Source: Dictyostelium discoideum (taxonomy: Eukaryota). From it: 64,000 bases of DNA. The notes beneath the pieces are model-generated. The model made no database searches. It saw only the letters and a program-made list of their open reading frames with translations, and had not been told where the DNA came from. Within the stretch, counting starts at the first letter, position 1; every line of letters starts with the position of its first letter. The stretch lies in NCBI GenBank assembly GCA_000004695.1, contig CM000151.3, positions 8,256,001 through 8,320,000 on the forward strand, written 5' to 3'. A program made the position numbers and the translations under genes. Positions 3,817-64,000 of this stretch are shown one piece after another.

Positions 3817-5279
3817 ATAAAAGATTTATAACTCAATTCGATACAATATTAAAAGAATTAATGAAACAATTATCACATGATATTTGTACAAACATTAGTA
3901 ATAGAGATAATATTGTTCATGGTCAAGATTTCTTTAATCACTCATTAAATGCAGATTTAAGATTTAGTTTAGCTATTGGTAGAAAGGATTTATTTTGGGA
4001 ATTATTAGATTGGATTCAACAATATATAAATAAAAATGAAAATTTAATGAAGTATCAAGTTTATCAATTTAATTCACCATATGAATCATTATTACCAACT
4101 GGTAGTTTATTTTCAAATGTAAAAACAATTATAAAAGAATTACCAACGACAACAACAACAACAACAAGAACAAGAACGACAACAACATCAACAACAACTG
4201 AAACTAAAATATTAAAAATTGATAATTTTGAAAGACCAATACCGAATGAATCAACAATTCAAATTGATTGGAATGAAAATAAATTAATTGGACCATTTAA
4301 ACCAATTCGTAAACTTATAAATTCATTTAAATATATTGATATTGTTATGAATTCAATTTGTAAATTAATGGATGTAAATGAATTTCAAAGATTTATTCAA
4401 TATAATTTCTTTGAATCAGATTTTCAATTTACAATTTATTCATATGCAGTATATAATAATAGAGATGATTTAATGTCATTCCTATTAAATAATTATATTA
4501 TTGAAATTGATAGATTCCCATTCTTTCATCCAGAAAGAGGCTATTCACAATATTTAGAATGTAAATTCATCTTTGAAAATCATTTCGAAAGAGTAAAGAA
4601 TCTTTCAAATTTAACTTTGGAATGGTGTGAAAGAAGAGATTTAGATTTCTCATTCTCTCTATTGAATGATTTTATTAAATATCTTTGTAAAGCAAAGCAT
4701 ATAACAACCTATAATCAGTTTATTCAAGATGATAATTTACAAATTAGAAATAAAATTATTAAAGAAATAATTGAAGAATTAAAGAAACAATATGACTCGA
4801 TCTTAGATGTAGTTGAAGATGAAGATATTAAAAAAGAGAATATCGCATGTCTATTAAAAAATCAAAAACATAAAGTTTCACTCATTCAATCAATTATTGA
4901 ACAACCAGATACTCAATTATACTTTAAATCAACTTTAGAAAAAATTATATTAGAATTAAAAGAGAAAAGAAAAATTAATGAAATTAATTCTCCATTCATT
5001 AAAGATGATCAAAATCCATTCTTGGATTCTTTTATTCATGGTGATATTAAAACTTGTAATATCATTCTCAAATATTATCCAAATCAATTTAAATTCACTA
5101 CAAGTTCAATCACTAAGGCATTAGGATTAGATAAAATTCATATTATTAAATATTTTTATAAAGTTGATAATTGTAAAAATTTAATTAATAATTTTAAAAA
5201 TGATAATAATTTATTAAAACATTTAAAAAATGAATTATTAAAACATCCAGTTTATAAATATCATTTAACTTGGTTATAA
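1029..5279 (+). CDS. large (1416 aa) single-exon protein of unknown function with poly-Asn, poly-Ser and poly-Thr tracts
   Basis: Uninterrupted 4.25 kb ORF with A/T-ending (Dictyostelium-like) codon usage. Homopolymeric tracts (N20, N16+, S17, T-rich) are encoded by AAT/AGT/ACA repeats. The C-terminus is paralogous to the partial ORF at 1..299. Confidence 0.7.
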
Positions 5280-9859: not shown

Positions 9860-12822
9860 TTAAATTGATTGAGGAAATTCAACAGGATTCATTTTAAAGT
9901 TTCTTGCAGAAATTGGACAAATAAAAGGTATTTGGAAACATTTTGGATGAACTATTGTACCATTTGGAAAGTAAACGAAAACACGATCACTAATTGGTTT
10001 TGAACAAACGGCACAACGTCTATCGGGACCAATATAAACCGAAGCAGAACAAACCATCATATATTCGGATTTAGTTGATAGATTTAAAGATTTTTGTAAA
10101 TTTTTAACGATTTTAGATTCACGTTGTTGACTAATTGAATAATTGAAGCTATTTGAAAGATAACTCTCTAATAAATTAATTGGTATAGAGTTTGGTAATA
10201 GTGCCAAAACCTTTATTGGATCCATTTCTTCATAATAATGATTTAAAAATTCAATGATATAACGTGGTATAATCGGCTCACCATTTGAATCTTTTATAAG
10301 TGAATTTGTTAATTGATTCTTTACACTACTCTTTAAACTTTGTTCTTTATAATTTAAATAAGTTCTTAATAAACATAAAAATAATTCTTGTCTTTTTGAA
10401 TCATATAATGATGATTTTGGTAAATTTGAATCATTATTATTATTATTATTATTATTATTTAAATTATTATTATTATTAATTAAATTAAAACCTTGTATTG
10501 GTGATGAAGATATTTGAATATTATTATTTATATTATTTATATTTTGTTGTGATAATCTAATTGAATTTCTTAAATTTGTTGTTGATGGTGAAGTACCCAT
10601 GATTGTTGGTGATGATGAATTTGGTGTATTTGAAGATGTTGGTGTTATTGTAGTTTGAGTACTAACTACATTTGTAATTGATAAACTAAAATTTGGATCA
10701 AAAGATTCACAAATATATTCAGCTTTTTTAAAATTATTTAATTTCCAAACTATAATATTAAACATCTTTTCATATTGACCGATTCTAAGATAAAGTATAA
10801 CCAATTCTTCATAGAGTAAACTATTACGAACACGATGTAACAATGTTGAAGCATTATAACAATTTGATAATTCCAATAGATTAATCAATTTTTGTCTATC
10901 AGAATTTGCAATTGGTATATCGGTTCTACCTTGAGAAGATTGTAATTCTGGGCAATTCTTAAAGATTTGTTCAATATATGAAGTTGCTAACTTTGTATGT
11001 AAATAATCAACCCTATTCTCTTCTTGATAAATTAAATATTCTAAATAGATTTGAAAATAGTAATCACCAAATGGTGTTAAAAATTCAATAACATCATCAA
11101 TTATAAATTGATCTTTTCTTTTCTTTAAAAATATTTTCATTGGTAATTGTTTTATAGAATCATCATCATCATCATCACCATCATCTTGGTTGTCTTTATT
11201 ATTATTATTATTATTATTATTTCGTTGTTGTTGTTGTTCTTGTGTAATTTTAATTAAAAATGGTGTAAATTCCCAAACCAATTCTTTATTTGGTTCTGGT
11301 AATATATCTTGATTTTGTTTACATTCTAAAAGTTGAATTGATTCTTCAATACCATTACAATTGAAATGATCTGATAATTCACCCAATGATAATCTATTCC
11401 AAAGTAATAATGCTTTTCTATACTTTTCAGTATACTGATAAACCAATCCTAATTGTTTATAAAGTTGTTTATTATTTAACCATTCTTCAACATCTTGAAT
11501 ATAGAATTGATTATTAATTACACTATTACCACCATTAACTCTACATTTTGCTAATAATGATATTAATTTTGAAATTTTATTTGATTCAGAATATAGCTTT
11601 AATAAAACTGTTGTTAAATCTTTAAATTCTTCACTACCACTTAACAATGCATTACTACTACTATTAATATTATTTATATAATGTTCTAAATATAAAGTTA
11701 ATTGCGATTTTGAATCATCAATTAATGAATCTACATCTTTTAATTCAATTGTATTTGGTGCATTTGAAATTGCACTATCTTTAATGGATTTGAAAATATC
11801 AGATTGATCAAATGGTGAACGATAGTTAGTTTGATAGGGCATATAAGTTGGAAAGAATGATATGATAGCACGGTGATCCAATTTTGATAATTGGAGATAC
11901 TTGAATGCTGAAGAGAATTTAAATCTATAGAATTCCGACATTGCAACCAATTCATAAACTTTGCAAAGTCTAGCTTGGTGAATTTGTTTCTCCCTATTTG
12001 GGTCGTACCCATCCTCGAGCTCGGCCCTCTCCCTCTTGAAAAATATTTCAAACAACCTTATGGCCTCCTCATGCTCGCCCCTATTAATCAATTGGTGTAC
12101 TAAATCATCGATATTCCCAACATGCAAACAGTACACGGAATTGGGTGAACTGCCATACAAAACTATGAAATCCTTGCCATTACCACGTCCTTCGAAAATC
12201 TGTTGGAATGATATCACTGACGATGACGACGATGCGCCTTTATTATGCGAACTATTATTCAACTCTTGAATGAGTTTTTGGTTTTTCATATCGTGTATGT
12301 TTATGCACCGGTTGTGGAGTATGGTGATGAGGTATGGCTCCAGGTACGACATCGACATTGGATTGCTGTCCCAAATGATTGACCCTTGGACAATGTCACC
12401 TTGCAAATCCACCAACACCGATAGGTCCACTGTCGTCAATAGGAATTTCTCTTGATCCAATATTAACTTTGTACGTGGACCCGGTACATTCTTATCCAAC
12501 TCCAATAGACTCTTATAGAGTCCACTATCGGCATCAACGATTGCATACTCTTTTCTACTTCCAACACATAAACTTGTTTTACACCATTCAACCGTTAATG
12601 CTAACTCTGGTAATGCAATCTCCCTATACATATCAAATACACCAATAAATTCATAAAGTGTTAATTTCCTTTTTGTAACAACACATATCTTAAATTCTTG
12701 ACTCTTTTTCTTTGAACAAAATGTTATTACACCTTTATTTGTTGATATACCATTTTGAGTATTTGGTCCATCTAAATTATACATACTAAAAACATCTAAA
12801 TTACCATCTATATATATTTATA

Positions 12823-12874
<52 letters not shown>

Positions 12875-13194
12875 TAAGTGTAATTCTTTAAATAGGAAAA
12901 AAAAAAAAAAAAAGAATTAAATAATTTATACTTACCACAAAGAGTTAATAATTTACCAATATCTGCAATTAATAATAATTTATCAACAGGTTTTTTACCA
13001 TATCCTAATGATTTACTATTTTCCATTCTACTTTTAAAGGTAATTTTTTTATTATTTTCTACTTTTTCAATGATATATAATAAAATTTGACCATCATTTG
13101 TACCTAAATATATATTATTTTGCCAAATTTCAATCGATTCAATTTTGCATGGTGCATTCTTTATTATTGGTATTAATTCAAATGGATTTAACAT
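9860..13194 (-). CDS. vps39: Vps39/Vam6-like HOPS-type tethering subunit (CNH domain + C-terminal Vps39-type zinc-finger region); exons complement(12936..13194) and complement(9860..12807)
   Basis: Exon 1 (ORF 12871..13194) gives MLNPFELIPII..IYLGTNDGQILLY, the CNH start. Donor TGTG|GTAAGT and acceptor ..TATATAG|ATGGTAAT (phase 1, 128-bp intron) join in frame to the 974-aa ORF. The CNH region aligns with human VPS39 (WCKTSLCVGSRKEYAIVDADSG ~ WCENSICVGFKRDYYLIRVDGKG). C-terminus is CAVCSKPISDRVFVYFPNGTIVHPKC. Confidence 0.8.
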
Positions 13195-31096: not shown

Positions 31097-32305
31097 GAAA
31101 TTCATTAAAATCATCATCACAACATAAATTATTAGTTGATGAAGAGAAAGAAGATTTAATATCAGCATCAGTTCATCAAAAAGATCCATATGATTTATCA
31201 ACTTCATCAACTTTAACAAATCATAGTAGTACAAATACATTGGTTAGTAGTGGTGTTCAAACAACATCTTCAAGTAGTACAAGTAGTATTGATAATTTAT
31301 TAGATGCAACAACTACAACAACTACAACCACTTCGACAACCAATAATATATCATCACAATCAAAAAATACAGGATCACATTCATATCCACATACACATAC
31401 AAGACAAATGTCAACTGAAAAAGTTGGACCACAATTTAAAACACCAATTACATCAATTCCACATCATATGAGAATGGAAGGTTTTCAAAGAGTAAAGCAT
31501 AACTCTACATCTTCATTGTATATAAAAAGTACATTATCAACACCTGATAATGATGAAATTTTAAGATGTATGGCAAATGCATTATTGTATCATATTGAAA
31601 GAGGTTCACAATTCCCTCAAAAAACTGTTGAAATTTTTAGTGAAGAAAAATATCCAATTACTGTAAGTTTATTAATTATTATTATTATTATTAATTAAAA
31701 ATATTAATTAATTATTATTAAATATTAATTTTCTTTATTTTTTTTTTTTTTTTTTTTAATAATAGAAAAATAAAATTGATTTAAAATCAAATCCAACAGT
31801 TGAAACTATTTATAAATTTATTAGAGATATTTTTAAAGCCGAGAAATTAGATAGTGAATGTGCAATTATGTGTTTAGCTTATATTGAAAGAATAATAACG
31901 TATACTGGTATTACATTAAGTTCAATTAATTGGAGAAGGATAGTTTTATCAGCATTAATTTTGGCATCAAAAGTTTGGGAAGATCAAAGTGTTTGGAATG
32001 TTGATTTCTTACCAGTATTCGATAATTTAACAGCGGCCGATTTAAATTGTCTAGAGAGACAATTCCTTGCAATGTTACAATACAACGTTAGTTTGAACGC
32101 TTCAATCTATGCAAAATACTATTTCGAGTTGAGAAATTTCTCAAAGTTAGACTCCAATCAATTCCCTTTGAAACCGTTGGATAAATCTGGTGTTAGAAGA
32201 TTGGAAGATCATTCAAAGGCTTCGGAATATAGAGTAAAACCATTTAAAAGAAGTGCTAGTGTTGATCAAATTAATCCACCCGAAATTCATACAAGAGCTG
32301 TTATT

Positions 32306-32311
<6 letters not shown>
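30817..32311 (+). CDS. cyclin Y homologue (N-myristoylated MGNCCS start, His- and Asn-tracts, Ser/Thr-rich linker, cyclin box); exons 30817..31662 and 31766..32311
   Basis: MGNCCSSS start. Exon 1 ends ATTACT|GTAAGT, acceptor AATAATAG|AAAAAT (phase 0). The cyclin box SECAIMCLAYIERIITYTGITLSSINWRRIVLSALILASKVWEDQSVWNVDF aligns with human CCNY [52 protein letters not shown]. Confidence 0.85.
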
Positions 32312-34825: not shown

Positions 34826-34896
34826 GCCGTGATAGTATAGTGGTAGTACATCAGATTGTGGCTCTGTTGACCCTGGTTCGATTCCAGGTCGCGGCA
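34826..34896 (+). tRNA. tRNA-His(GUG): tRNA-His (anticodon GUG)
   Basis: Cloverleaf: acceptor GCCGTGA/TCGCGGC, A box TAGTATAGTGG, anticodon loop TTGTGGC (GTG), T arm CCTGG-TTCGATT-CCAGG, discriminator A. Immediately followed by a CTTTTTTCT Pol III terminator. Confidence 0.9.
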
Positions 34897-34905
34897 CTTT
34901 TTTCT
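34897..34905 (+). terminator. RNA polymerase III oligo-T terminator of the tRNA-His gene
   Basis: CTTTTTTCT directly after the discriminator base. Confidence 0.5.
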
Positions 34906-47966: not shown

Positions 47967-48010
47967 CAGTTGACGGGGGGTTTCTTAGAAGAATTGCTGT
48001 AAGGTCAACT
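47967..48010 (-). ncRNA. Class I non-coding RNA gene (Dictyostelium-specific family), copy 1
   Basis: Minus strand reads 5'-AGTTGACCTTACAGCAATTCTTCTAAGAAACCCCCCGTCAACTGT-3'. The 5' GTTGAC + CCTTACAGCAA 11-nt motif is conserved. The 3' GTCAAC can pair with the 5' end as a terminal stem. An oligo-T run follows. Confidence 0.6.
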
Positions 48011-48315: not shown

Positions 48316-48369
48316 CAGTTGACAGGGGGTTTTCTTTTTATGTAGAGAATGAATTGCTGTAAGGTCAAC
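48316..48369 (-). ncRNA. Class I non-coding RNA gene, copy 2 (tandem, same orientation, ~360 bp from copy 1)
   Basis: Minus strand reads 5'-AGTTGACCTTACAGCAATTCATTCTCTACATAAAAAGAAAACCCCCTGTCAACTGTC-3'. Same conserved 5' motif and terminal stem. Confidence 0.6.
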
Positions 48370-51381: not shown

Positions 51382-54321
51382 TAATTAATTTATATATTTA
51401 TTTTACTAATATATATATATATATATATATATATTTTATTTTTTTTTTTTTTAAAAAAAAAAAGAATAATTTTCCTTAGAAAATTAACAGATTATAATAT
51501 TGAACATGCAAAAGCATTATTTGATACAATTAAATGGAATGAAAAAAATAAAACACCACAATTTTTAAGATTCTTTATTGAAGAATTTAAAGATGATGAT
51601 AAATATTTATCATTAGTTTTGGAATACCATGGTGAACAGTTGATGACAAGTACGGGGATATCAATTGTAATGGATCATTATATGAGAGTTGGAAAAAAAG
51701 AAGAATTAAGAAAATTGATTGAATCAGTGGTGATTTCAAATAAGATGGCAGAATTTCCAGCGATATACGAACCATTAATTAAATCATGTTTATATTTAGA
51801 TGATCATGAATCTGCATTATCATTTTACAATAGAATATTGTCAACACCACAAAGATTGAATCATGCACCATTTAACTATTTCTTAAATTATTATTTGGAT
51901 AAGGATAGCGAAGATGGGGTGAGCAAATCGGTAAACTTCTTTTTAAGATTCATTAAATCTGTGCCACAATTTATAACTACTGAATCATTTTGCAATTACA
52001 TTGGTAGATTATTGAATGTGTATTTACCAAGTCAGGGTTTCATTGGTAGACCTGTCGTAGAGGATTTATTAAGTATGCTTCAAAAGCGTGCTTTCATTAC
52101 ATCGAATAACGTTTACCTAGCTTTAATACTCCATTTGGTACGTGATGATGTCAATCAAAAAGAATTTGCTCATCAAATCTATATGGAAATTATAAAACCC
52201 GAACATTCAGATCCACTAAAAAATCATCGAAAAATAATTAAATATTTAATAAAAGCTAATCAACCAAATGAATTAAAAGAATTATTAAATAAAATTAAAG
52301 AAAAACAAAAAGAAGCTTTATTAAAAAATGCATTATTAATTGAACAACAACAATTAAAACAACAACAACAACAACAACAAGTACAAAATCAAGAATTCGA
52401 TAATATTTCAGAAATACAAAAAAATAATAATTCAATACAAATTGATCAATTTGCAATGTGGTTTCCATTAACACAATTATTATTAGAATTTGGACAAAAA
52501 CATAATAATGATTTTGAAATTTATGAAGAGTCATTAAAGAATGCTGATCAAAGACATTTACATATATTATTATTTTATAATGAAATGGTTGGTAATAGTG
52601 AATTGGTTTCAGTGATTGAGAATTATTTAGAAAGAAAAAATGTATATTTATTATCATCAACATTATCAAAATTAATTCAATGGTATTTAGCATTTGATCG
52701 TTATCATTTAGCACTATATTGGTTAAGTAAAAAGATTTCAACTTATAATTCTGCAGCTTCACCAATTTTAATGACTTATTTTAAACAATTCTCTGAAAGT
52801 AATAAAAATCAATCAGAATTAGTTAAATTTTGGAATAATCATATTTTAGTTTATCCAATTCAAAAAGATAATAATAATAATACTCAACAATTTTCAGAAG
52901 ATGATAATTTAATAAAAAATCAAAATGAAGAAGATGGTGAAGAAGAACAACAACAACAAGTAGGAGTAGATGAAAGTGTAACAAAAATAAAAACAATGAC
53001 AGATAATGATAAAATAAATATTAATAATGATAATATAATTAGAATTGGTGAAACTAAAAAATTGATAGCAATTAAAAGTCAATTTGAAACTAGAGAAGAT
53101 ATAAAGAATAGTTGGGAACAGTTAGCAACATTTTTAACAAATGTAAAGACATTGGAAGAGGTTAAAGAATCTACTAATTTACCATTTAGTTTAAAAATTC
53201 AAAAAGCATGCACTGATGAAGATGCCGATAGAATCATTGAGATTTTAGAAGAGCATTTCGAACAATCAACCATTCCAACACATAATGCATTATTGGTTGC
53301 ATATATAACACTTGGTAGAATCGATTTAGAGAAATACATATTCCTATTGAACAAAACTCCAAGACATATTCGTAACATTGTTTATGATCCAAGTATTTAT
53401 GAAAAAATACTTGAAATGGATTTCGATATGGGTATTAATATTCTATCAAAAGAGAGTTCAACAATACTACAATCTCATACAACTTATAATTTAATATTGA
53501 AAGCGTGTTGTAATATCAACCAAACTGAATTGGCTTCAATGATAGTTGCCAGAATGATTGGATCAAAAAGGATCATTGTTCATTCTGAATTATATTTACA
53601 AACAATGTTTAAAAATGGCTTACATAATCATGCTGTCGTTAAAAATTTAAAAAATGTTTTGATTTCTTATGGCACAAAGGTTTCTCAAACATTATGTAAT
53701 ATGGAGATATTGGCATTCTTGGAGAATGGTGAACTTGATGATGCTTTGGCTATTTTCACCGCGTCACCAAAGGATATTGAATCTTTGAGATTGGGTTTAA
53801 AAATTTATAGTAAAATGTATCCAATCCCTCCATTGTCAAATTTACATAATTGGACTCCATTGTTAAATATTCAACATAATTTGAAATCTTCAATTTTCAC
53901 AGAATATCTTTATAGATATTTATATGAAAAAGATTTACAACATTTAATTGTTAAATTATATGAAAAAACTACTATGGATCCTTCAGTTGAAATCTCTCCA
54001 ATGGAGTTACATTATGCATTATTTTCAACAGCTAATAAAAACAAACTTTTCCAAGTTTTCCTAAGTTATCGTGGTAATCAAATTACACAAGAATCTTTTG
54101 ATCTCATAAAAACTGTAAATCAAACTCTAAAAGTTGAAGAGGTTAAAAATAAACTTTCAAAACTTATTATTGCACCCAATATAAAAGATACACCAACAAC
54201 CAAACCAATCACTCATGAAACTAAAGAATTTTTAATTTTCAATTTCACTCCATATTTAAAAAATCAAAAATTAAAAAGACAATCTTTAGCTGATGAAACT
54301 TTATCAAATTCAACTAAATAA
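50699..54321 (+). CDS. pentatricopeptide-repeat (PPR)-like protein, probably mitochondrial (~1140 aa) with a long poly-Asn insert; exons 50699..51288 and 51480..54321
   Basis: Exon 1 ends GATAA|GTAATT. The intron contains (ATT)n and (AT)n arrays. Acceptor TTCCTTAG|A (phase 2) keeps the frame into ORF 51619..54321 (which the track starts at TTG). Repeated ~35-aa helical-hairpin motifs (..HNALLVAYITLGRIDLEKYIFLL.., ..TYNLILKACCNINQTELASMIVARMI..). Confidence 0.65.
51293..51381. repeat. (ATT)n microsatellite (~29 copies) inside the PPR-gene intron, followed by (AT)13 at 51411..51437
   Basis: Read directly in the sequence. Confidence 0.9.
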
Positions 54322-60062: not shown

Positions 60063-60108
60063 ATTAACTCCAAAACAAAAAAAAAAAAAAAAATTAAAAT
60101 AAACCAAA

Positions 60109-64000
<3,892 letters not shown>

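What the first reader, a model, noticed from the sequence alone, without database searches (positions are those of the whole stretch)
11940..12600. GC-rich, foreign-codon island embedded in-frame inside the Vps39-like coding exon
Within the minus-strand 974-codon exon, a ~0.65 kb stretch jumps to ~43-50% GC in 60-bp windows, against ~27-32% on both sides. It still encodes a colinear, conserved part of the CNH domain (..DADSGLYKSLLELDKNVPGPRTKLILDQEKFLLTTVDLSVLVDLQGDIVQGSIIWDSNPMSMSYLEPYLITILHNRCINIHDMKNQ..FFKRERAELEDGYDPNREKQIHQARLCKV..). The codons used (AGG x5, CGG, GGG, CTC, CTG, GAG, GCC and many TCG) are essentially avoided elsewhere in this window. Even the highly expressed rpl7a and rps27 genes here use only C-ending two-fold codons plus CGT/GGT. 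The peak segment carries overlapping XhoI/SacI sites (CCTCGAGCTCGG) and is dense in antisense ORFs (12036.., 12270.., 12379..), as expected for non-native GC content. Three explanations are possible: a recoded or engineered segment, a gene-conversion or introgression tract, or an in-frame chimeric assembly from a GC-richer relative. None of these is ordinary for this genome.
Basis: seen in the sequence. Interest (0 to 1): 0.85.

Follow-up and report, generated by a model that had tools for sequence, protein, structure and literature searches.

The report
Natural AT-to-GC substitution hotspot in exon
About 0.6 kb of a Dictyostelium discoideum Vps39-like gene became GC-rich through a recent, lineage-specific burst of mostly silent A/T-to-G/C changes, which fits GC-biased gene conversion at a recombination hotspot and rules out engineering, foreign DNA or misassembly.

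Summary
Window 12001-12600 is the GC-richest 600-bp bin of the 64 kb (42% against a 20.5% mean). The effect sits at third codon positions: GC3 is 0.40-0.73 in the island and 0.00-0.20 in the rest of the exon.

The gene is D. discoideum AX4 DDB_G0277663 (CNH/Vps39 family). Codon alignment with D. citrinum, D. firmibasis and D. purpureum shows a colinear, orthologous island with no foreign donor.

- GC3 over codons 90-270 is 0.53, 0.29, 0.15 and 0.19 in those four species.
- On the D. discoideum branch, synonymous AT>GC changes hit 31% of AT sites in the island and 2% in the flanks (p=2e-16).
- A<->T changes run at the same rate inside and outside (2.3%).
- A>G and T>C are balanced (17:13).
- Seventeen AT>GC changes are shared with D. 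citrinum, which also has its own burst offset towards the 3' end.
- The XhoI/SacI motif is four silent changes in a conserved Ala-Glu-Leu-Glu-Asp.

Best explanation: a fixation bias towards GC, most likely GC-biased gene conversion at a narrow, drifting recombination hotspot. This is notable because a published genome-wide study found no such bias in this species. Engineering and chimeric assembly are refuted.

The parts
11963..12556 (-). GC3 island: the region of clustered AT>GC substitutions (ORF codons ~77-274, protein residues ~171-368). The D. discoideum-specific core is 11978-12508.
   Evidence: GC and GC3 profiles. Positions of polarised W>S events on the D. discoideum and ancestral branches. 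Permutation test of clustering, p<=2e-4.
12014..12022 (.). Overlapping XhoI/SacI sites (CTCGAGCTC on the + strand; sense strand GAG CTC GAG = Glu-Leu-Glu). A chance product of four silent AT>GC changes.
   Evidence: Codon alignment with three orthologues; site positions.
9860..12807 (-). Exon 2 of DDB_G0277663 (CNH / Vps39_1 / zf-Vps39_C protein, 1068 aa), including the stop codon.
   Evidence: 100% identity to the AX4 protein. Pfam domains. Splice junction mapped from the protein.
12808..12935 (-). The gene's only intron (sense GTAAGT...TATAG, 128 nt). It contains a ~48-nt homopolymer A run (T run on the + strand, about 12826-12873).
12936..13194 (-). Exon 1 of DDB_G0277663 (residues 1-86 plus the first base of codon 87). 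It has normal AT-rich codon usage (GC3 0.11).

Best explanation
The island is a natural, evolving feature of the D. discoideum/D. citrinum lineage. It is a ~0.55-0.6 kb stretch of exon 2 of the Vps39-like gene DDB_G0277663 in which A/T>G/C changes have been fixed about 15 times faster than in the flanks, while the protein and the gene order stayed orthologous.

The most likely mechanism is GC-biased gene conversion. This step is inferred, not shown. Recurrent recombination initiated in or next to this stretch forms heteroduplex DNA. Mismatch repair resolves A:C and G:T mismatches preferentially to G:C. AT>GC variants are therefore over-transmitted and fixed regardless of their effect on codon usage. 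The hot segment was already active in the common ancestor of the two species and has since shifted: it stayed over codons ~93-269 in D. discoideum and moved 3'-ward to codons ~181-430 in D. citrinum.

The island has no function of its own. The rare codons, restriction sites and spurious ORFs are side effects.
For: Shown:

(a) The burst is lineage-specific. GC3 over codons 90-270 is 0.53 in D. discoideum, 0.29 in D. citrinum, 0.15 in D. firmibasis and 0.19 in D. purpureum. GC1 and GC2 are unchanged.

(b) Substitution rates at synonymous third positions on the D. discoideum branch:
- W>S: 27 of 86 W sites (0.314) in the island, 10 of 480 (0.021) in the flanks; Fisher p=1.8e-16.
- W>W: 0.023 in both, so there is no general hypermutation and no divergent donor.
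- S>W: 0.105 in the island, 0.214 in the flanks.
- Implied equilibrium GC3: 0.09 for the flanks, matching the observed ~0.1, and 0.75 for the island.

(c) Counting all third positions, the D. discoideum branch has 35 W>S, 2 S>W and 2 W>W inside the island and 12, 13 and 13 outside (p=1.3e-7). The changes are strand-symmetric (A>G 17, T>C 13). The transition/transversion mix matches the background.

(d) First and second positions lean the same way: 8 W>S and 0 S>W. This includes replacements at residues conserved in the other three species, such as Q>H CAA>CAC and S>G AGT>GGC.

(e) Seventeen W>S against 1 S>W map to the shared ancestral branch. D. citrinum has its own burst at codons 271-430 (22:1) and is decaying at codons 90-180 (2:6).

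(f) Clustering permutation gives p<=2e-4. Neighbouring genes and exon 1 show no burst.

(g) The new codons mix C-ending and rare G-ending types. Only 3 of 25 selectively preferred codons in D. discoideum end in G (PMC8321536). The rpl7a exon has G3 = 12/185.

(h) No Rfam family matches. There is no excess RNA structure, z=-0.88. There are no flanking repeats.

Literature:
- A chromosome-length/GC correlation consistent with gBGC has been reported for D. discoideum (rho=-0.94; PMC5635611).
- GC is raised around lost introns in Dictyostelium, which the authors read as gene-conversion hotspots (PMC4683709).
Against: - Five genome-wide tests found no evidence of gBGC in D. discoideum: GC against LD-based recombination, proximal against distal chromosome halves, intron against exon GC, and the intron SNP frequency spectrum (PMC8321536). 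The prior for strong gBGC in this species is therefore low, and this locus would have to be a rare, narrow exception.
- No recombination or polymorphism data for this locus could be examined. The link to recombination is purely inferred.
- The island lies wholly within coding sequence. The prediction that non-coding sites are equally affected could not be tested.
- The S>W reduction is not significant (2 of 19 against 12 of 56).
- Polarisation is by parsimony with three or four taxa.
Confidence: 0.6

Rival explanations
1. A local, recombination-independent mutational bias. Some process acting on this stretch, for example recurrent break or lesion repair by an error-prone polymerase with an A:T>G:C signature, generates AT>GC mutations at a high rate, and these then fix neutrally.
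For: The excess is dominated by A:T>G:C transitions (30 of 35 W>S). The S>W decrease is not statistically significant. Genome-wide tests found no gBGC in this species.
Against: - The transition/transversion mix of W>S changes matches the background (30:5 against 11:1), so no new mutational signature is evident.
- W>W changes are not elevated.
- The S>W rate is halved, in the direction expected for a fixation bias.
- I know of no such A:T>G:C-specific, strand-symmetric local mutator in amoebozoans (own knowledge).
Confidence: 0.13
2. Natural selection for GC-rich or rare codons in this part of the mRNA. Possible reasons are a long rare-codon cluster that slows translation at the CNH propeller/solenoid boundary, or local mRNA stability or an avoided AT-rich signal.
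For: The island straddles the end of the CNH domain (residue 274) and the next ~95 residues. Many of the new codons are rare. Both sister lineages gained GC in the same gene.
Against: - The feature is absent from D. firmibasis and D. purpureum, which encode the same domain boundary.
- The GC-rich segments of D. discoideum and D. citrinum are offset, and D. citrinum is losing GC at codons 90-180.
- The changes mix preferred-type C-ending and rare G-ending codons, so they follow composition and not codon identity.
- Non-synonymous sites shift the same way.
- There is no excess RNA structure.
- At 180 or more codons it is far longer than described rare-codon clusters (own knowledge).
Confidence: 0.12
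3. A single transferred tract: introgression or gene conversion from an unsampled close relative, or from a paralogue or retrocopy, in which this segment was already GC-rich.
For: The boundaries are fairly sharp, and nucleotide identity to D. citrinum drops to 81% in the island from 92-94% in the flanks.
Against: - The extra divergence consists almost entirely of W>S changes. W>W divergence equals the flanks, although this rests on only 2 events, so a donor up to about 3-fold more diverged cannot be excluded.
- Amino-acid identities in the island follow the species tree.
- Seventeen derived W>S states are shared with D. citrinum.
- The database search found no second D. discoideum protein with E<=1e-10 that could act as a paralogous donor.
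- A transfer would only move the origin of the GC richness to another lineage.
Confidence: 0.05
4. An artefact: an engineered or recoded cassette, vector contamination, or an in-frame chimeric assembly with a GC-richer species.
For: Overlapping XhoI and SacI sites lie at the GC peak, and the XhoI site is the only one in 64 kb.
Against: - The sites are silent variants of a conserved AELED motif.
- blastn against 72,556 plasmids found no match.
- The protein is 100% identical to the AX4 reference.
- An independent D. citrinum assembly shares 39 of the 95 GC-ending third bases and shows a partial island at the same place.
- The GC-richer dictyostelids are only 41-48% identical in protein.
Confidence: 0.01

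Closest known systems
Biased clustered substitutions from GC-biased gene conversion in mammals, for example the Fxy gene of Mus musculus after its 3' part moved into the pseudoautosomal region, and several human accelerated regions (own knowledge; general gBGC background in PMC8321536 and PMC5635611)
   Same: Both are kilobase-scale, lineage-specific bursts of W>S substitutions inside an otherwise conserved gene. Both affect synonymous and some non-synonymous sites, create non-optimal codons, and leave other substitution classes unchanged.
   Different: The host is an amoebozoan with one of the most AT-rich eukaryotic genomes, and genome-wide tests there found no gBGC. No recombination map ties the locus to a hotspot. 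The tract is very short and lies entirely within one exon. The sister species shows an offset burst.
Elevated exonic GC around lost introns in D. discoideum and D. purpureum, interpreted as gene-conversion hotspots (Ma et al. 2015, PMC4683709)
   Same: Same genus, and the same proposed cause: locally frequent gene conversion raising exon GC.
   Different: No intron was lost here since the split from D. firmibasis and D. purpureum. All four group-4 species have the same uninterrupted long exon. That paper reports a statistical trend in GC content, not a polarised substitution burst at one locus.
Translationally selected codon bias of highly expressed Dictyostelium genes (Sharp & Devine 1989, as cited in PMC8321536; de Oliveira et al. 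2021)
   Same: It also raises GC3 locally, as in the rpl7a exon in this window (GC3 up to 0.53).
   Different: Expression-linked bias is gene-wide, mostly C-ending, and conserved among species. The island is sub-genic, rich in rare G-ending codons (G3 up to 0.43 against <=0.12 in rpl7a) and lineage-specific.

Membership tests
gBGC footprint (biased clustered substitutions) | Spatial cluster of substitutions with a strong W>S excess on a defined lineage | tested here: met
   D. discoideum branch: 43 W>S against 2 S>W in codons 90-270. Synonymous W>S per W site is 0.314 against 0.021 in the flanks (p=1.8e-16). Clustering permutation p<=2e-4.
gBGC footprint (biased clustered substitutions) | GC-neutral substitution classes (W<->W, S<->S) not accelerated | tested here: met
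   W>W per W site is 0.023 in the island and 0.023 in the flanks. Counts are small (2 events).
gBGC footprint (biased clustered substitutions) | Strand-symmetric bias | tested here: met
   A>G 17 against T>C 13 on the coding strand.
gBGC footprint (biased clustered substitutions) | Bias independent of site function | tested here: inconclusive
   Synonymous and non-synonymous sites are both biased (non-synonymous 8 W>S: 0 S>W). Non-coding sites could not be tested, because the island is entirely exonic.
gBGC footprint (biased clustered substitutions) | Coincides with locally elevated recombination or conversion | not testable with these tools
   No D. discoideum recombination map or population data were available. 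Genome-wide, GC and LD-based recombination are uncorrelated in this species (PMC8321536).
gBGC footprint (biased clustered substitutions) | W>S polymorphisms segregate at higher derived-allele frequency than S>W | not testable with these tools
   No other D. discoideum isolate sequence could be retrieved.
Translational codon-usage selection | Enrichment of the species' preferred codons, gene-wide and conserved in orthologues | tested here: not met
   Rare G-ending codons are enriched 5- to 20-fold. The enrichment is sub-genic and absent in D. firmibasis and D. purpureum. Only 3 of 25 preferred codons end in G.
Engineered insert or cloning scar | Sequence not colinear with orthologues, vector similarity, sites at junctions | tested here: not met
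   The island is fully colinear and orthologous, and the sites are silent variants of the conserved AELED. No plasmid hit. No flanking repeats.
Foreign or chimeric segment (HGT, introgression from a GC-rich taxon) | Discordant phylogeny and elevated divergence in all substitution classes | tested here: not met
   Island amino-acid identity is 0.89 (D. discoideum-D. citrinum), 0.87 (D. discoideum-D. firmibasis) and 0.87 (D. citrinum-D. firmibasis), against 41-48% to GC-richer taxa. W>W divergence is not elevated.
Embedded structured RNA or overlapping gene | Rfam match, excess folding energy, or a conserved alternative ORF | tested here: not met
   No Rfam hit at the gathering threshold; the best E-values are 0.49 and 0.74. 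Folding z=-0.88. The off-frame ORFs have no significant Pfam hit, and the tested one (11743-12057) has no orthologue in D. citrinum or D. firmibasis.

The most novel reading that the evidence does not exclude
The island is not a recombination footprint at all. It marks either a locus-targeted A:T>G:C mutational process or selection for a GC-rich or rare-codon mRNA segment, arising in a species where gBGC is reportedly absent. That would be a previously undescribed way of generating sub-genic compositional islands in an extremely AT-rich eukaryote.
Probability: 0.2. Interest if true: 0.7.

Novelty: new member of a known kind. Interest (0 to 1): 0.45.

Why it matters
D. discoideum has been used as a 'gBGC-free' reference species for separating selection from neutral forces in codon usage (PMC8321536). 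A sub-genic island with an implied equilibrium GC3 of ~0.75, against ~0.09 in its flanks, shows that a strong local fixation bias towards GC exists at least here.

If it is gBGC, the island is a candidate fine-scale recombination hotspot. To my knowledge, dictyostelid meiosis lacks Spo11 and no hotspots have been mapped there. The offset bursts in D. discoideum and D. citrinum would then document hotspot drift between sister species.

There are also practical points. Such islands can be mistaken for contamination, HGT or positive selection. The local rare codons may also affect expression constructs made from this gene.

Tried and rejected
- The AX4 locus and other isolates could not be retrieved. 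Exact-product look-ups for P0001 and for the exon ORF found nothing. A metagenome scan with six island peptides gave no relative. Codon-level identity to the reference and fixation in wild isolates were therefore not checked directly. The support is 100% protein identity plus the independent D. citrinum assembly.
- Vector or synthetic origin: blastn (word 11) against PLSDB plasmids found no match.
- Embedded ncRNA: Rfam at gathering and at E<=1 gave only noise.
- mRNA structure: z=-0.88.
- Insertion signatures: only chance 14-18-nt repeats.
- Overlapping genes: the + strand 89-aa ORF has no Pfam hit. The off-frame 103-aa ORF has a sub-threshold 21-residue Neil1 hit and no orthologous ORF in the sister species.
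- Recurrent GC richness of this gene in other lineages: the P. violaceum orthologue looked GC-rich (GC3 ~0.6), but so are its neighbouring genes. A. subglobosum is GC-rich throughout. There is no special conservation.
- Intron-loss-associated conversion (PMC4683709): rejected, because the exon is uninterrupted in all four group-4 species.
- CpG-specific effect: CpG o/e is 0.88 in the island and 0.62 in the rest of the exon. That is unremarkable for young GC-rich sequence.
- Literature search for DDB_G0277663: no paper.
Full report

Yes. In 120-bp windows, GC is 0.38-0.48 from 11940 to 12600. It is 0.18-0.33 on either side within the same exon and about 0.1 in the intron. Across the whole 64 kb (mean GC 20.5%), the 600-bp bin 12001-12600 is the richest at 42.2%.

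Splitting by codon position in the minus-strand ORF 9860-12784 shows a third-position effect. GC3 is 0.40-0.70 over ORF codons ~81-300 and 0.00-0.20 elsewhere, and GC2 is flat.

Against 1058 40-codon windows from the other long stop-free frames (GC3 mean 0.128, sd 0.091), the peak of 0.70 lies about 6 sd out. No other coding frame reaches its G-ending fraction of 0.43; only frames antisense to coding ORFs do. The rpl7a exon (Pfam Ribosomal_L7Ae) reaches GC3 0.53 almost entirely through C-ending codons, with 12 G-ending codons of 185.

They are 5- to 20-fold above the rate in 8873 codons of 17 other ORFs. The only XhoI site in the window (12014) and one of its two SacI sites (12017) overlap at the GC peak.

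**2. What gene is it?**

The ORF is 100% identical over 974 residues to D. discoideum AX4 DDB_G0277663 on an 8.48-Mb contig, so the window is D. discoideum chromosome 2.

The 1068-aa protein has CNH (residues 24-274), Vps39_1 and zf-Vps39_C domains. The gene structure is exon 1 at 13194-12936, a 128-nt intron at 12935-12808, and exon 2 at 12807-9860.

ORF codon n corresponds to protein residue n+94. The island therefore covers residues ~171-368: the last part of CNH plus ~95 residues beyond it.

**3. Comparison with orthologues**

I fetched the orthologous loci of:
- D. citrinum (L001, 88% amino-acid identity);
- D. firmibasis (L002, 83%);
- D. purpureum (L003, 56%);
- P. violaceum (L004/L006) and A. 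subglobosum (L005).

All four group-4 species have the same uninterrupted long exon. In a codon alignment, GC3 over codons 90-270 is:

| Species | GC3 |
|---|---|
| D. discoideum | 0.53 |
| D. citrinum | 0.29 |
| D. firmibasis | 0.15 |
| D. purpureum | 0.19 |

GC1 and GC2 are essentially equal across the four. The island is thus orthologous, colinear sequence that became GC-rich recently. The enrichment is partly shared with the sister species, in an independent assembly.

P. violaceum and A. subglobosum are GC-rich across this gene, but so are their neighbouring genes. This reflects genome-wide composition there and is not a conserved property of the locus.

**4. Nature of the change**

I polarised substitutions by parsimony, using the tree ((D. 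discoideum, D. citrinum), D. firmibasis) with D. purpureum as outgroup for the ancestral branch.

Third-position changes in codons 81-300:

| Branch | W>S | S>W | W>W |
|---|---|---|---|
| D. discoideum | 35 | 2 | 2 |
| Shared ancestral | 17 | 1 | 4 |
| D. citrinum | 12 | 5 | 3 |

Outside the island (codons 301-974) the D. discoideum branch has 12, 13 and 13. Fisher's test of 35:4 against 12:27 gives p=1.3e-7.

I then restricted the count to synonymous third positions with an unambiguous ancestor:
- The W>S rate per W site is 0.314 in the island and 0.021 in the flanks (p=1.8e-16).
- The GC-neutral W>W rate is 0.023 in both.
- The S>W rate per S site is 0.105 in the island and 0.214 in the flanks (not significant).
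- These rates imply an equilibrium GC3 of 0.09 for the flanks, which matches the observed ~0.1, and 0.75 for the island. The observed peak is 0.70-0.73.

Further properties:
- The changes are strand-symmetric (A>G 17, T>C 13). Their transition/transversion mix matches the background (30:5 against 11:1).
- First and second positions lean the same way (8 W>S, 0 S>W). This includes replacements at residues conserved in the three other species.
- Random placement of the 65 D. discoideum-branch W>S events on eligible sites never gave more than 27 in 180 codons. The observed maximum is 43 (p<=2e-4).
- Exon 1 and both neighbouring genes show no such burst.

**5. The sister species**

D. citrinum shows a W>S burst offset towards the 3' end:

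| Codons | W>S | S>W |
|---|---|---|
| 90-180 | 2 | 6 |
| 181-270 | 10 | 3 |
| 271-430 | 22 | 1 |

Its GC3 over codons 271-430 is 0.29, against 0.14 in D. discoideum. The driver therefore began before the two species split, persisted in both, and shifted position. That is behaviour expected of a process, not of a single event.

**6. Rejected explanations**

*Engineering.* The XhoI/SacI motif is GCC GAG CTC GAG GAT (A-E-L-E-D). D. citrinum has GCA GAA TTA GAA GAT, D. firmibasis GCA GAA CTT GAA GAT and D. purpureum TCA GAA TTT GAA GAT. The motif is therefore four silent AT>GC changes in a conserved peptide. No plasmid matched and no flanking repeats were found.

*Chimera or a GC-rich donor.* Island amino-acid identities follow the species tree (0.89, 0.87 and 0.87), and W>W divergence is not elevated. 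The GC-richer dictyostelids are only 41-48% identical. The search found no second D. discoideum protein that could act as a paralogous donor.

*Embedded RNA or overlapping gene.* There is no Rfam hit and folding gives z=-0.88. The off-frame ORFs have no significant Pfam match, and the tested one lacks an orthologue.

*Translational selection.* The gained codons include many rare G-ending ones. Only 3 of 25 preferred D. discoideum codons end in G (PMC8321536).

*Intron-loss-linked conversion (PMC4683709).* No intron difference exists among the group-4 species.

**7. Mechanism**

The data establish a local, long-lasting, strand-symmetric process specific to W>S changes, which behaves like a fixation bias. 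The best-known cause is GC-biased gene conversion at a narrow recombination hotspot.

This step is inferred. I had no recombination map and no polymorphism data.

It also runs against a published conclusion. Five genome-wide tests found no evidence of gBGC in D. discoideum (PMC8321536). Those tests work at coarse scale or on introns and would not detect a rare 0.6-kb exonic hotspot. An older analysis did find a chromosome-size/GC correlation consistent with gBGC (PMC5635611).

| Explanation | Probability |
|---|---|
| gBGC | ~0.6 |
| Local A:T>G:C mutational process | ~0.13 |
| Selection for a GC-rich or rare-codon segment | ~0.12 |
| Transferred tract from an unsampled close relative | ~0.05 |
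| Artefact | ~0.01 |

**8. Novelty and verdict**

The kind of feature is well known from mammals: biased clustered substitutions, such as mouse Fxy and the human accelerated regions (own knowledge). I found no description of such an island in dictyostelids and no paper mentioning this gene.

It is a new member of a known kind. Interest is moderate, for three reasons:
- It is a clear local exception to the reported absence of gBGC in this species.
- It is a candidate first fine-scale recombination hotspot in dictyostelids.
- It is a caution against reading such islands as contamination, HGT or adaptation.

Noticed in passing
L001 (D. citrinum) about 4240-4720, orthologous to window ~11500-11970: D. 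citrinum has its own AT>GC burst just 3' of the D. discoideum island. In codons 271-430 it has 22 W>S against 1 S>W and GC3 0.29, against 0.14 in D. discoideum. It is losing GC at codons 90-180 (2 W>S: 6 S>W). The hot segment seems to have shifted between the sister species.
   Followed up: partly
window 47967-48009 and 48316-48369 (- strand): Two Dictyostelium Class I RNA genes (Rfam RF01414; 43.7 and 51.8 bits, both above the gathering score) lie ~350 bp apart.
   Followed up: no
window 34826-34897 (+): A single tRNA-His(GTG) gene, the only tRNA in the window.
   Followed up: no
window 12808-12935 (intron of DDB_G0277663): The intron carries a ~48-nt uninterrupted homopolymer (T on the + strand, 12826-12873) about 250 bp upstream of the island's 5' edge. 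D. firmibasis also has a long A run here but no island, so the run alone does not explain the hotspot.
   Followed up: partly
window 61500-63900: This is the second GC-richest stretch of the window (up to 38% GC), with extreme strand skews (GC skew to -0.79, AT skew to +0.64). It lies in the low-complexity, N/Q-rich 3' part of the long ORF 60103-63999. Its composition comes from simple repeats, unlike the island.
   Followed up: no
L006 (P. violaceum contig AJWJ01000136.1): P. violaceum genes have GC-rich cores (0.40-0.58) with AT-rich ends and AT-rich intergenic DNA. The Vps39-like gene, an aspartyl protease and rpl7a are also linked there, as they are in the D. discoideum window.
   Followed up: no
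window 51385-54318 (+) and 31766-32308 (+): These ORFs show minor GC3 bumps (0.30-0.50 over 30 codons, G3 up to 0.27), one in a PPR-like ORF and one in a short ORF. They are far weaker than the island and I did not polarise them against orthologues.
   Followed up: no
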